From: Escherichia coli
GTDB lineage: Bacteria; Pseudomonadota; Gammaproteobacteria; Enterobacterales; Enterobacteriaceae
NCBI RefSeq assembly: GCF_041248615.1
Contig: NZ_CP158427.1
Direction: 5' to 3' (one strand)
DNA length: 64,000 nucleotides
Shown here piece by piece: positions 21,001 through 24,000 of this stretch. Position numbers: made by a program. Each line of letters opens with the position of its first letter. The stretch's first letter is position 1.

Positions 21001-24000
21001 GAGGAAATATATTCCACTGGTATTATTTATCTTTTCATGGCCGGTATTGTGTGCAGATATTCATGGACGGGTTGTTCGTGTACTGGACGGTGATACCATC
21101 GAGGTCATGGACTCACGGAAGGCAGTGCGGATCAGGCTGATAAATATTGATGCACCGGAAAAGAAACAGGATTATGGCCGGTGGTCAACGGACATGATGA
21201 AATCACTGGTTGCAGGAAAAACGGTTACCGTCACATATTTTCAGCGAGATCGTTATGGTCGTATTCTCGGGCAGGTTTATGCACCAGACGGAATGAATGT
21301 TAATCAGTTTATGGTCCGGGCCGGGGCTGCCTGGGTATATGAGCAGTACAACACAGATCCCGTGCTGCCTGTCCTTCAGAACGAAGCCAGACAACAAAAA
21401 CGTGGGCTCTGGTCAGATGCTGATCCGGTTCCCCCCTGGATATGGAGACACCGTAAATAAAGCGATGGCAATCTTATCATTCATCTGTTCTCAGCGGGAA
21501 TAAAAATGGCGAAAACAAAACAGGAATGGCTGTATCAGTTACGGCGATGTTCATCAGTCAATACGCTGGAAAAAATTATTCATAAAAACAGAGACAGTTT
21601 ATTAAACAGTGAACGTGAATCATTTAATTCAGCAGCAGACCACCGGTTAGCGGAATTAATCACCGGAAAGTTATATGACAGGATACCAAAAGAGATATGG
21701 AAATATGTAAGGTAATAATTCAGCATAATTAATTACCAGGAGCAGATAAACAATGAAGCTGATTATTTTTATTCTTATTGTTCTGATTATTGCAGCGTTA
21801 CTTATCCGGATTATCCTCAGAAGTGTAAATCAGCATTCTCCTTTGCTGATGCAATTGCATGCGGCAGGTATACGGACCGGTGATGCAGAGCGAATACTGT
21901 CCGGCGGTGAATACTGGCAACGTCAGAAGACGCTGCTGACAGAAAGGGAAGTCAGTTTTATGAAAGGACTGTTCAGAATTGTGGATATGAAGCGGTGGTA
22001 TCTGTGTCCGCAGGTACGGGTCGCAGATATCGTCCAGCTGAACGGGAATATCCGGCCACGATCACGCCAGTGGTGGCAGTTATTCAGGATGGTGTCTCAG
22101 TGGCATGTTGATGTGGTTATCGTTGAGCGGCGTTCGTTCAGTATTGTTGCAGCAGTAGAGCTGGATGATGCCAGCCATTTACGACCTGAACGCAGACGCC
22201 GGGATATTCTTCTGGAAGAGGTTCTGAGGCAGGCTGGTATTCCGTTGCTCAGAAGCCACGATGCCAGAAAACTGCTGCAGATGACCGGAGAATGGCTGAA
22301 TACAACAGGGGCTGCCCAGCAGTCACCGGAACATCGTAGCTGACGCCTTCGCGTTGCTCAGTTGTCCAACCCCGGAAACGGGAAAAAGCAAGTTTTCCCC
22401 GCTCCCGGCGTTTCCATAACTGAAAACCATACTATTTCACAGTTTAAATCACATTAAACGACAGTAATCCCCGTTGATTTGTGCGCCAACACAGATCTTC
22501 GTCACAATTCTCAAGTCGCTGATTTCAAAAAACTGTAGTATCCTCTGCGAAACGATCCCTGTTTGAGTATTGAGGAGGCGAGATGTCGCAGACAGAAAAT
22601 GCAGTGACTTCCTCATTGAGTCAAAAGCGGTTTGTGCGCAGAGGTAAGCCTATGACTGACTCTGAGAAACAAATGGCCGCTGTTGCAAGAAAACGTCTTA
22701 CACACAAAGAGATAAAAGTTTTTGTCAAAAATCCTCTGAAAGATCTCATGGTTGAGTACTGCGAGAGAGAGGGGATAACACAGGCTCAGTTCGTTGAGAA
22801 AATCATCAAAGATGAACTGCAGAGACTGGATATACTAAAGTAAAGACTTTACTTTGTGGCGTAGCATGCTAGATTACTGATCGTTTAAGGAATTTTGTGG
22901 CTGGCCACGCCGTAAGGTGGCAAGGAACTGGTTCTGATGTGGATTTACAGGAGCCAGAAAAGCAAAAACCCCGATAATCTTCTTCAACTTTGGCGAGTAC
23001 GAAAAGATTACCGGGGCCCACTTAAACCGTATAGCCAACAATTCAGCTATGCGGGGAGTATAGTTATATGCCCGGAAAAGTTCAAGACTTCTTTCTGTGC
23101 TCGCTCCTTCTGCGCATTGTAAGTGCAGGATGGTGTGACTGATCTTCACCAAACGTATTACCGCCAGGTAAAGAACCCGAATCCGGTGTTCACTCCCCGT
23201 GAAGGTGCCGGAACGCTGAAGTTCTGCGAAAAACTGATGGAAAAGGCGGTGGGCTTCACCTCCCGTTTTGATTTCGCCATTCATGTGGCGCATGCCCGTT
23301 CCCGTGGTCTGCGTCGGCGCATGCCACCGGTGCTGCGTCGACGGGCTATTGATGCGCTGCTGCAGGGGCTGTGTTTCCACTATGACCCGCTGGCCAACCG
23401 CGTCCAGTGTTCCATCACCACACTGGCCATTGAGTGCGGACTGGCGACAGAGTCCGGTGCAGGAAAACTCTCCATCACCCGTGCCACCCGGGCCCTGACG
23501 TTCCTGTCAGAGCTGGGACTGATTACCTACCAGACGGAATATGACCCGCTTATCGGGTGCTACATTCCGACCGACATCACGTTCACACTGGCTCTGTTTG
23601 CTGCCCTTGATGTGTCTGAGGATGCAGTGGCAGCTGCGCGCCGCAGTCGTGTTGAATGGGAAAACAAACAGCGCAAAAAGCAGGGGCTGGATACCCTGGG
23701 TATGGATGAGCTGATAGCGAAAGCCTGGCGTTTTGTGCGTGAGCGTTTCCGCAGTTACCAGACAGAGCTTAAGTCCCGTGGAATAAAACGTGCCCGTGCG
23801 CGTCGTGATGCGAACAGAGAACGTCAGGATATCGTCACCCTGGTGAAACGGCAGCTGACGCGTGAAATCTCGGAAGGACGCTTCACTGCTAATGGTGAGG
23901 CGGTAAAACGCGAAGTGGAGCGTCGTGTGAAGGAGCGCATGATTCTGTCACGTAACCGCAATTACAGCCGGCTGGCCACAGCTTCTCCCTGAAAGTGATC

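What the first reader, a model, noticed from the sequence alone, without database searches (positions are those of the whole stretch)
22850..23142. IncFII copy-number control region: tap-repA1 translational coupling and expected antisense RNA
The 24-codon tap ORF (23068-23142) ends with a TGA that overlaps the repA1 GTG start within gtgactga, the classic coupling arrangement of R1/R100-type replicons. By analogy, a CopA-type antisense RNA should be transcribed from the minus strand within about 22900-23060, though I could not delimit it precisely. The long minus-strand ORF 22874-23380 in the ORF track is most likely an artefact of this region.
Basis: partly seen in the sequence, partly recalled or inferred. 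Interest (0 to 1): 0.3.

Follow-up and report, generated by a model that had tools for sequence, protein, structure and literature searches.

The report
Standard IncFII plasmid copy-number control region
This is the textbook copy-number control switch of an R100/R1-type (IncFII) resistance plasmid, in which a small antisense RNA blocks a 24-codon leader peptide whose translation is needed to make the replication protein; it is intact, identical to plasmid R100, and ordinary.

Summary
The 24-codon tap ORF lies at 23068-23142. The repA1 GTG is at 23135-23137. The tap TGA is at 23140-23142, inside GTGACTGA. The two ORFs overlap by 8 nt, but the stop codon shares no base with the GTG. RefSeq annotation of 100%-identical plasmids gives the same coordinates.

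With its U-tail it ends near 22958. A sigma-70-like promoter lies upstream (-35 TTGAAC 23085-23080, -10 TATACT 23062-23057).

Window 22867-23150 is base-for-base identical to R100 and pEK499.

The 168-aa minus-strand ORF 22874-23380 is an artefact. It matches no protein family. In relatives, codon changes are 72 synonymous to 14 nonsynonymous in the repA frame, but 5 to 81 in the antisense frame. All seven diverged alleles also carry frameshifting indels.

The only departure from R100 is upstream. The copB repressor and PrepA operator cassette is a different allele (49% amino-acid identity).

Verdict: already known, low interest.

The parts
22583..22843 (+). copB / repA2: an 86-aa transcriptional repressor of PrepA. 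It lies just upstream of the finding, and its allele differs from R100's.
   Evidence: ORF. Pfam RepB-RCR_reg E 6.4e-45. NCBIfam PRK13702 E 4.4e-41. RefSeq 'replication regulatory protein RepA', WP_000083819.1. Only 49% identical to R100 RepA2.
22840..22875 (+). Candidate PrepA promoter and CopB operator. The palindrome GTAAAGaCTTTAC lies at 22840-22852, the -35-like TTTACT at 22848-22853 and the -10-like TAGATT at 22870-22875.
   Evidence: Read directly from the sequence. TAGATT and everything downstream of it are conserved in all alleles, while the -35/operator part changes together with the copB allele. It was not picked up by the consensus scan, which needs at least 9 of 12 matches. Assigning it as the CopB-repressed promoter is an inference from R1 literature.
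22958..23050 (-). copA gene: an antisense RNA of about 91-93 nt. Stem-loop I is at 23050-23031, a single-stranded linker follows, and the long bulged stem-loop II is at about 23017-22966. Its apical loop contains CGCCAA, and the 3' tail is UUUUUGCUUUU.
   Evidence: Rfam RF00042 covers model positions 1-92 of 92, 106.3 bits, E 2.4e-19. MFE fold is -36 kcal/mol, z -3.5. The structure is kept in 8 distinct alleles, with 2 pairs changed on both sides. The sequence is identical to R100 and pEK499.
23057..23085 (-). PcopA promoter: -35 TTGAAC at 23085-23080, a 17-nt spacer, and -10 TATACT at 23062-23057. The -35 lies inside the tap ORF, and the -10 lies opposite the tap Shine-Dalgarno and spacer.
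   Evidence: This was the only promoter-like site found in 22300-23400 (9 of 12 matches). The -10 ends 6 nt before the first Rfam model position at 23050.
22958..23050 (+). CopT: the target of CopA in the leader of the copB-tap-repA1 and tap-repA1 mRNAs. Its stem-loop II' carries UUGGCG (22990-22995) at the apex.
   Evidence: It is the exact complement of copA. The plus strand folds into the two mirror stem-loops, -37.5 kcal/mol, z -3.5, with 0 of 200 shuffles folding as well. TTGGCG position.
23053..23142 (+). The tap (repA6) leader-peptide cistron: Shine-Dalgarno GGGGAG at 23053-23058, ATG at 23068, TGA at 23140-23142.
   Evidence: RefSeq 'RepA leader peptide Tap', WP_001365705.1, the same protein accession as in R100. 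The Shine-Dalgarno starts 3 nt after the end of the CopA-complementary stretch.
23106..23133 (+). Predicted hairpin inside the 3' half of tap that pairs the repA1 Shine-Dalgarno (AGGA, 23127-23130) with CCUUCU.
   Evidence: Present in both the MFE and centroid folds. The stem is kept in 9 of 10 alleles, with only wobble, loop or bulge changes; one allele has a U-U mismatch and there is no compensatory double change. Its role in making repA1 depend on tap translation is inferred from R1 literature recalled from memory (Blomberg et al. 1994), which I did not read here.
23135..23992 (+). repA1: the replication initiator, 285 aa. Its GTG start at 23135-23137 lies within GTGACTGA.
   Evidence: NCBIfam TIGR03474 E 2.1e-175 and PRK13750 E 1.6e-186. 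Pfam IncFII_repA. RefSeq coordinates. 278 of 285 residues identical to R100 RepA1.

Best explanation
This is the intact copy-number control module of an IncFII (R100/NR1, R1-type) replicon.

repA1 mRNA is made from a constitutive promoter upstream of copB. It is also made from a second promoter, PrepA, between copB and CopT, which the CopB tetramer represses.

The repA1 ribosome-binding site is weak and is sequestered in a local hairpin. RepA1 is therefore made only when ribosomes translate the 24-codon tap ORF and terminate at TGA 23140-23142, 2 nt past the repA1 GTG, where they reinitiate.

The roughly 91-nt unstable antisense RNA CopA is transcribed constitutively from PcopA on the minus strand (23050 to about 22958). 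Its concentration tracks plasmid copy number. Its loop II contacts the UUGGCG loop of CopT, and the complex extends to a stable duplex that ends 3 nt before the tap Shine-Dalgarno. This blocks tap initiation, and therefore RepA1 synthesis and initiation at oriR.

Shown here: every sequence element, its coordinates, its family membership and its identity to R100. Inferred from R1/R100/pINV/pEC958 literature: that these elements are transcribed and act in this way.
For: Rfam CopA full-length hit at 106.3 bits against a gathering score of 60.

PcopA sits at the correct distance from the RNA start.

Both strands fold well: CopA z -3.5 and CopT z -3.5.

The structure is kept across 8 alleles, and variation is concentrated in the apical part of stem-loop II and in stem-loop I.

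Tap, RepA1 and CopB each pass the curated HMM thresholds.

RefSeq annotation on 100%-identical plasmids gives identical coordinates.

Window 22867-23150 is exactly identical to R100 and pEK499.

The start-NN-stop overlap is kept in all relatives examined.

The repA1 Shine-Dalgarno is paired in the predicted hairpin.

The mechanism is described for R1 in PMC5717011, PMC4344636 and PMC12361487.

A CopA of about 90 nt was seen on northern blots for the IncFII plasmid pINV, in PMC12779154.

Transposon mutagenesis showed that copA, repA6, repA1 and oriV are required for pEC958 maintenance, and that paper states the pEC958 RepFII replicon is 100% identical to pEK499's, in PMC4398462.
Against: There are no transcript or copy-number data for this particular plasmid.

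The plus-strand fold of the tap-repA1 junction as a whole is not better than shuffles (z -1.05), and the Shine-Dalgarno-sequestering hairpin shows no compensatory changes.

PrepA and PcopB were not detected by the consensus promoter scan.

The host plasmid is a large cointegrate. MOB-suite types the identical record p14408_1 with several IncF replicon labels, so this replicon need not be the one that drives replication.
Confidence: 0.96

Rival explanations
1. The 168-aa minus-strand ORF 22874-23380 is a real protein-coding gene antisense to tap and repA1.
For: It is the longest minus-strand ORF in the region. A long open frame persists in several relatives, at 122-183 codons. Some RefSeq records annotate shorter minus-strand CDSs here.
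Against: It has no Pfam or NCBIfam match. Over the repA1 overlap, codon changes in 9 relatives are 5 synonymous to 81 nonsynonymous in this frame, against 72 to 14 in the repA frame. All 7 diverged alleles have net indels of +1, -1 or -2 within its copA-overlapping part, so the frame is not preserved. It is not annotated in the identical RefSeq records.
Confidence: 0.01
2. The plus-strand 61-aa ORF 22937-23122, annotated in some records as 'plasmid copy control protein CopA', encodes the copy-control factor. On this reading the inhibitor would be a protein, not an RNA.
For: The ORF exists, and one RefSeq record names it copA / plasmid copy control protein CopA, WP_012615301.1.
Against: The same frameshifting indels at 22997-23035 fall inside it. 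In L009 the frame runs into tap instead, giving a 68-aa fusion. The region scores as a structured RNA on the opposite strand. The literature identifies CopA as an RNA.
Confidence: 0.01
3. The module is intact but functionally silent. On this reading it is a passenger replicon in a multi-replicon cointegrate plasmid that is replicated from another origin.
For: MOB-suite types the identical plasmid p14408_1 with several IncF replicon labels, and the plasmid carries a fused IncN-type transfer region.
Against: Every element is intact and identical to replicons shown to be the essential one in multi-replicon F2:A1-type plasmids. In pEC958, RepFII rather than RepFIA drives replication. The DnaA box of oriR is present downstream at 24168-24176. 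MOB-suite labels are unreliable here, since R100 itself is typed 'IncFIA'.
Confidence: 0.05

Closest known systems
R100 / NR1 (IncFII) repA2-inc(copA)-repA6(tap)-repA1 control region, NC_002134
   Same: Window 22867-23150 is 100% identical. That stretch covers the -10 of PrepA, CopT/copA, PcopA, tap and the repA1 start. The Tap protein has the same accession. RepA1 is 98% identical.
   Different: The copB/repA2 body and the PrepA -35/operator stretch (about 22617-22866) are a different allele. CopB is 86 aa against 84 aa and 49% identical, and the promoter region is about 10 bp shorter. RepA1 has seven amino-acid differences.
Plasmid R1 copB-copA/copT-tap-repA basic replicon
   Same: The gene order and logic are the same: two promoters, the CopB repressor, the CopA antisense RNA and tap-coupled repA translation, as described in PMC5717011, PMC4344636 and PMC12361487. 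From memory only, the 86-aa CopB here looks like the R1-type allele.
   Different: The R1 sequence was not in the collections, so no base-level comparison was made. The R1-type assignment of copB is a recollection, not a test.
IncI-alpha (ColIb-P9 repY-repZ / Inc RNA) and IncB (pMU720 repB-repA / RNAI) control systems
   Same: These also use an antisense RNA against a leader stem-loop with a UUGGCG loop, and translational coupling of the initiator to a leader peptide. The CopT stem-loop gives weak plus-strand hits to PK-repZ (22.5 bits) and PK-repBA (19.8 bits).
   Different: Both hits are far below the gathering scores of 44 and 45 and cover only the stem-loop (model positions 5-59 of 150 and 5-51 of 124). 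The activator pseudoknot part of those models is not matched. The initiator here is an IncFII RepA.

Membership tests
CopA-like antisense RNA (Rfam RF00042) | Covariance-model score at or above the curated gathering score, over the full model length | tested here: met
   106.3 bits against 60, model positions 1-92 of 92, minus strand 23050-22960.
CopA-like antisense RNA (Rfam RF00042) | Two stem-loops (a short SL-I and a long bulged SL-II), with SL-II plus a U-run acting as an intrinsic terminator | tested here: met
   MFE and centroid folds show both stem-loops, followed by UUUUUGCUUUU. The consensus structure is kept in 8 alleles.
CopA-like antisense RNA (Rfam RF00042) | Own promoter, transcribing opposite to repA within the leader region | tested here: met
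   TTGAAC, 17 nt, TATACT on the minus strand, ending 6 nt before position 1 of the model. This is a consensus match only; no transcript data were available.
CopA-like antisense RNA (Rfam RF00042) | A transcript of about 90 nt is actually produced and inhibits RepA synthesis | not testable with these tools
   Demonstrated for R1 and pINV in the literature. It is inferred here from 100% identity to R100 and pEK499.
Tap / RepA6 leader peptide (Pfam PF08048, TIGR03475) | HMM score above the curated cut-off | tested here: met
   54.1 bits against 25. 60.6 bits against 35.05, an equivalog model.
Tap / RepA6 leader peptide (Pfam PF08048, TIGR03475) | The ORF ends a few nucleotides after the repA1 start codon, in overlapping reading frames, giving the geometry needed for translational coupling | tested here: met
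   GTG at 23135-23137 and TGA at 23140-23142. GTGACTGA is identical in 9 of the 10 aligned sequences. L010 and L012 carry same-spaced variants (GTGGCTGA, GTGGCTAA).
Tap / RepA6 leader peptide (Pfam PF08048, TIGR03475) | repA1 translation depends on tap translation | not testable with these tools
   Literature for R1 and NR1. Here there is only the predicted hairpin that sequesters the Shine-Dalgarno.
IncFII RepA initiator (TIGR03474 / PF02387) | HMM score above the curated cut-off over the full length | tested here: met
   TIGR03474 581.5 bits against 446.9. PRK13750 618.1 bits against 478.
IncFII basic replicon (R1/R100 type) | Gene order copB, PrepA, CopT/copA, tap, repA, oriR | tested here: met
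   Coordinates. The DnaA box TTATCCACA at 24168-24176, downstream of repA1, marks the expected oriR position. oriR itself was not delimited.
IncFII basic replicon (R1/R100 type) | Incompatibility with R100 and R1, determined by CopA | not testable with these tools
   Predicted, because copA and its promoter are identical to R100's.

The most novel reading that the evidence does not exclude
The evidence does not exclude two mildly novel readings.

(a) The replicon pairs a non-R100 copB/operator cassette with an R100-identical copA/tap. That pairing could change the low-copy 'rescue' behaviour of PrepA without changing incompatibility.

(b) The conserved CGCCA at 23162-23166, just inside repA1, could pair with the CopT loop UGGCG (22991-22995). 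That would be a long-range activator interaction like the IncB and IncI-alpha pseudoknots.

Reading (a) is a known kind of mosaicism. Reading (b) rests on a 5-nt complementarity in a conserved coding stretch and is probably chance.
Probability: 0.03. Interest if true: 0.35.

Novelty: already known. Interest (0 to 1): 0.05.

Why it matters
For annotation, this fixes the exact coordinates of the CopA RNA gene. No feature is listed there in the annotation tables of the identical records (one PLSDB table, which never lists RNA genes, and one RefSeq table). It also flags several CDS calls in public records as artefacts: the 168-aa and 50-aa minus-strand ORFs, the 61-aa 'CopA protein' and an 83-aa minus-strand 'RepA'.

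For biology, it says that this KPC-2-carrying cointegrate plasmid should have R100-type copy control and should be incompatible with R100-type IncFII plasmids, because copA is identical.

It does not open any new question.

Tried and rejected
- I tried to fetch plasmid R1 (KY749247) for a base-level copA/copT alignment, but it is not in the collections. R100 was used instead.
- I tried to read the primary papers: Blomberg et al. 1992 (PMC556743) and Wu et al. 1992 (PMC207473). Neither is held, so the mechanism is cited from open-access papers that summarise them.
- pEC958 was fetched for 1-50000 only, which does not contain RepFII. The link to its transposon data therefore goes through pEK499, which does contain an exact copy.
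- The intrinsic-terminator scan did not report the CopA terminator. The bulged stem-loop II probably does not fit the scan's simple stem and 3-8-nt loop template. The U-tail was read directly from the fold.
- The inverted-repeat search at a minimum length of 10 missed the 6+1+6 palindrome at 22840-22852, which was read by eye.
- I considered and rejected protein-coding readings of the minus-strand 168-aa ORF and the plus-strand 61-aa ORF.
- I considered an IncB/IncI-type pseudoknot. Only sub-threshold stem-loop matches were found.

Full report
**Observation**

- The tap ORF runs from ATG 23068 to TGA 23140-23142. It has 24 codons and encodes [24 protein letters not shown].
- The octamer GTGACTGA occupies 23135-23142.
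- The frame opening at GTG 23135 encodes a 285-aa protein beginning (M)[18 protein letters not shown].

One refinement is needed. The TGA (23140-23142) does not share a nucleotide with the GTG (23135-23137). It lies two bases after it, so the two reading frames overlap by 8 nt. The ORF lister reports the repA frame from an upstream in-frame GTG at 23123 (289 aa). RefSeq annotation of 100%-identical plasmids uses 23135 instead (pEC_L8; p1LS4; p14408_1).

**Family assignments**

Each protein passes curated thresholds.

| Protein | Matches |
|---|---|
| Tap | Pfam RepA1_leader, 54.1 bits (cut-off 25); TIGR03475, 60.6 bits (cut-off 35.05) |
| RepA1 | TIGR03474, 581.5 bits (cut-off 446.9); PRK13750, 618.1 bits (cut-off 478) |
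| Upstream 86-aa ORF, 22583-22843 | RepB-RCR_reg, E 6.4e-45; PRK13702. This is CopB/RepA2. |

**The antisense RNA**

An Rfam scan of the whole window at gathering thresholds gives one CopA (RF00042) match. It lies on the minus strand from 23050 to 22960 and covers model positions 1-92 of 92. It scores 106.3 bits against a gathering score of 60, with E 2.4e-19.

The consensus promoter scan of 22300-23400 returns a single site. It is on the minus strand: TTGAAC (23085-23080), a 17-nt spacer, then TATACT (23062-23057).

The minus-strand RNA folds into a short 5' stem-loop and a long bulged stem-loop, followed by UUUUUGCUUUU. The fold energy is -36 kcal/mol, z -3.5. With this tail the RNA ends near 22958, giving about 91-93 nt.

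The complementary plus strand (CopT) folds into the mirror structures. The energy is -37.5 kcal/mol, z -3.5, and 0 of 200 shuffles fold as well. UUGGCG (22990-22995) sits at the apex of the target loop.

The CopA-complementary stretch ends at 23050. That is 3 nt before the tap Shine-Dalgarno GGGGAG (23053-23058) and 18 nt before the tap ATG.

**Relatives**

The 2-kb replicon matches more than 5000 plasmid records, 197 of them at 99% identity or better. The control region matches 3567 of 5426 complete E. coli genomes.

Direct alignment with R100 (NC_002134) shows 100% identity from 22867 through the repA1 start. An exact-string search finds window 22867-23150 in R100, pEK499, pEC_L8, p1LS4 and p14408_1.

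The Tap protein accession is the same as in R100. RepA1 is 278/285 identical.

Upstream of 22867 the sequences diverge. CopB is 49% identical to R100 RepA2, and the PrepA -35/operator stretch is about 10 bp shorter.

In a five-allele alignment, three blocks are conserved: the copB 5' UTR, the first dozen or so codons of copB, and everything from the -10-like TAGATT (22870-22875) onward. The copB body and the stretch just before TAGATT vary as a cassette. In the window this stretch holds the palindrome GTAAAGaCTTTAC (22840-22852), which overlaps a -35-like TTTACT. I infer that this is the CopB operator, but I did not test it.

**Comparative test of the structure and the coupling**

I fetched ten loci between 92% and 98.5% identity and aligned eight of them, together with R100 and the window (ten sequences). 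L012 (which carries an insertion) and L013 (a record-end fragment) were read separately.
- Substitutions and indels cluster in the apical part of stem-loop II (about 22993-23003), at its base (about 23017-23023), and in stem-loop I (about 23032-23049).
- The lower stem of stem-loop II, the CGCCAA loop, PcopA, the tap Shine-Dalgarno and the tap-repA junction are almost invariant.
- RNAalifold on the 8 distinct CopA alleles recovers the two stem-loops. Two pairs changed on both sides and several show wobble-compatible single changes.
- The start-NN-stop overlap is GTGACTGA in 9 of the 10 aligned sequences and GTGGCTGA in L010.
- In L012 it is GTGGCTAA for tap and ATGGCTGA for an inserted ORF.
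- A hairpin at 23106-23133 pairs the repA1 Shine-Dalgarno AGGA (23127-23130) with CCUUCU inside tap.
- Across alleles, changes in that hairpin fall in the loop, in the bulge, or give U-G wobbles. One allele has a U-U mismatch and there is no compensatory double change. The hairpin is therefore consistent with the published model of a sequestered repA ribosome-binding site, but it is not independently proven here.

**The minus-strand ORF**

ORF 22874-23380 (168 aa) has no Pfam or NCBIfam match and is not annotated in the identical RefSeq records. Codon differences over its overlap with repA1, in nine relatives:

| Frame | Synonymous | Nonsynonymous |
|---|---|---|
| repA frame | 72 | 14 |
| Antisense frame | 5 | 81 |

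All seven diverged alleles also carry net indels of +1, -1 or -2 within its copA-overlapping part. It is an artefact, open only because it lies antisense to a GC-rich gene.

The same indels rule out two other ORFs. One is the plus-strand 61-aa ORF 22937-23122, which one record names 'plasmid copy control protein CopA'. The others are the shorter minus-strand CDSs annotated in some records.

**Mechanism**

The sequence shows all parts of the R1/R100 circuit at canonical spacing. The following steps come from the literature.
- repA translation is coupled to tap, and CopA inhibits tap translation (PMC5717011; PMC4344636; PMC12361487).
- CopA is constitutive, unstable and about 90 nt long. RNase E cleaves it between the stem-loops, and PcnB-dependent polyadenylation leads to its decay (PMC12779154).
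- In pEC958, transposon insertion sequencing found copA, repA6, repA1, repA4 and oriV to be required for maintenance. That paper states the pEC958 RepFII replicon is 100% identical to pEK499's (PMC4398462).
- pEK499 contains an exact copy of window 22867-23150.

Transfer of function to this window is therefore an inference from sequence identity. It is a very strong one.

**Comparison and novelty**

The element is a member of the IncFII CopA/tap/RepA family on every feature that could be tested. The untested features are transcription, dependence on tap, and incompatibility.

It differs from R100 only in the copB/operator cassette, and allelic variation of that cassette is evident among the relatives.

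Weak plus-strand hits of the CopT stem-loop to the IncI-alpha and IncB pseudoknot models are far below threshold (22.5 and 19.8 bits against 44 and 45). They cover only the stem-loop. This fits a distant relationship between these antisense systems, which I recall from the literature and did not verify here, and does not indicate a pseudoknot in this replicon.

Nothing here is new. Interest is low.

**Context**

Window 2440-44400 is 100% identical to E. coli NRZ14408 plasmid p14408_1. That plasmid is an F-type plasmid with the tra region upstream. Downstream of the replicon it carries IS26, an IncN-type VirB-like transfer region, ISKpn6 and blaKPC-2.

The DnaA box TTATCCACA at 24168-24176 lies where oriR is expected.

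Noticed in passing
window 20651-20834 (-), 15644-15720 (-), 6965-7050 (-): Three further Rfam matches at gathering level, all to antisense RNA families whose Rfam descriptions place them antisense to pHK01_099, traI and traG: AS-pc02 (229.5 bits), AS-traI (106.4 bits) and AS-traG (105 bits).
   Followed up: no
window 24168-24176 (+): A perfect DnaA box, TTATCCACA, about 175 bp downstream of the repA1 stop, where oriR of R1/R100-type replicons is expected. It is the only copy in the window, although 34 of 100 shuffles also give at least one.
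   Followed up: partly
window about 22617-22866: The replicon is a mosaic. The copB body and the PrepA -35/operator are a different allele from R100 (CopB 49% identical), while copA/tap is identical to R100. A 13-bp palindrome, GTAAAGaCTTTAC (22840-22852), spans the copB stop codon and the candidate -35.
   Followed up: partly
window 22937-23122 (+), and L013 471-656, L008 385-636 (-), L007 432-557 (-): Public records place CDS annotations on top of the copA RNA gene: a 61-aa 'plasmid copy control protein CopA', an 83-aa minus-strand 'replication protein RepA' and a 41-aa hypothetical protein. None keeps its frame across alleles. No feature is listed over copA in the annotation tables of the identical records (the PLSDB table omits RNA genes by design; the RefSeq table of p1LS4 shows none).
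   Followed up: yes
L012 (NZ_CP032080.1 p.CT30-P2) 600-1150: This is a variant replicon in which an insert of about 473 bp places a 160-aa ORF between tap and repA. Part of that ORF resembles the RepA N-terminal region. It is chained by the same start-NN-stop overlaps (tap ends in GTGGCTAA; the ORF ends in ATGGCTGA at the repA start), which suggests a three-step coupling cascade. The same architecture appears in H63, H64 and H68.
   Followed up: partly
window 2440-44400: This stretch is 100% identical to E. coli NRZ14408 plasmid p14408_1 (NZ_LT599826.1). Downstream of the IncFII replicon lie IS26, a methyltransferase and restriction gene pair, an IncN-type VirB-like T4SS with korA and eexN, ISKpn6, and blaKPC-2 starting near window 44149.
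   Followed up: partly
window 22965-23016 (+): The CopT stem-loop gives sub-threshold hits to the IncI-alpha PK-repZ model (22.5 bits) and the IncB PK-repBA model (19.8 bits). The stem-loop alone matches, not the pseudoknot.
   Followed up: no
window 23162-23166 (+): CGCCA lies 27 nt inside repA1 and is complementary to UGGCG of the CopT apical loop (22991-22995). The surrounding codons are invariant in all ten aligned alleles. This is probably chance or an ordinary constraint on the start of the gene.
   Followed up: no
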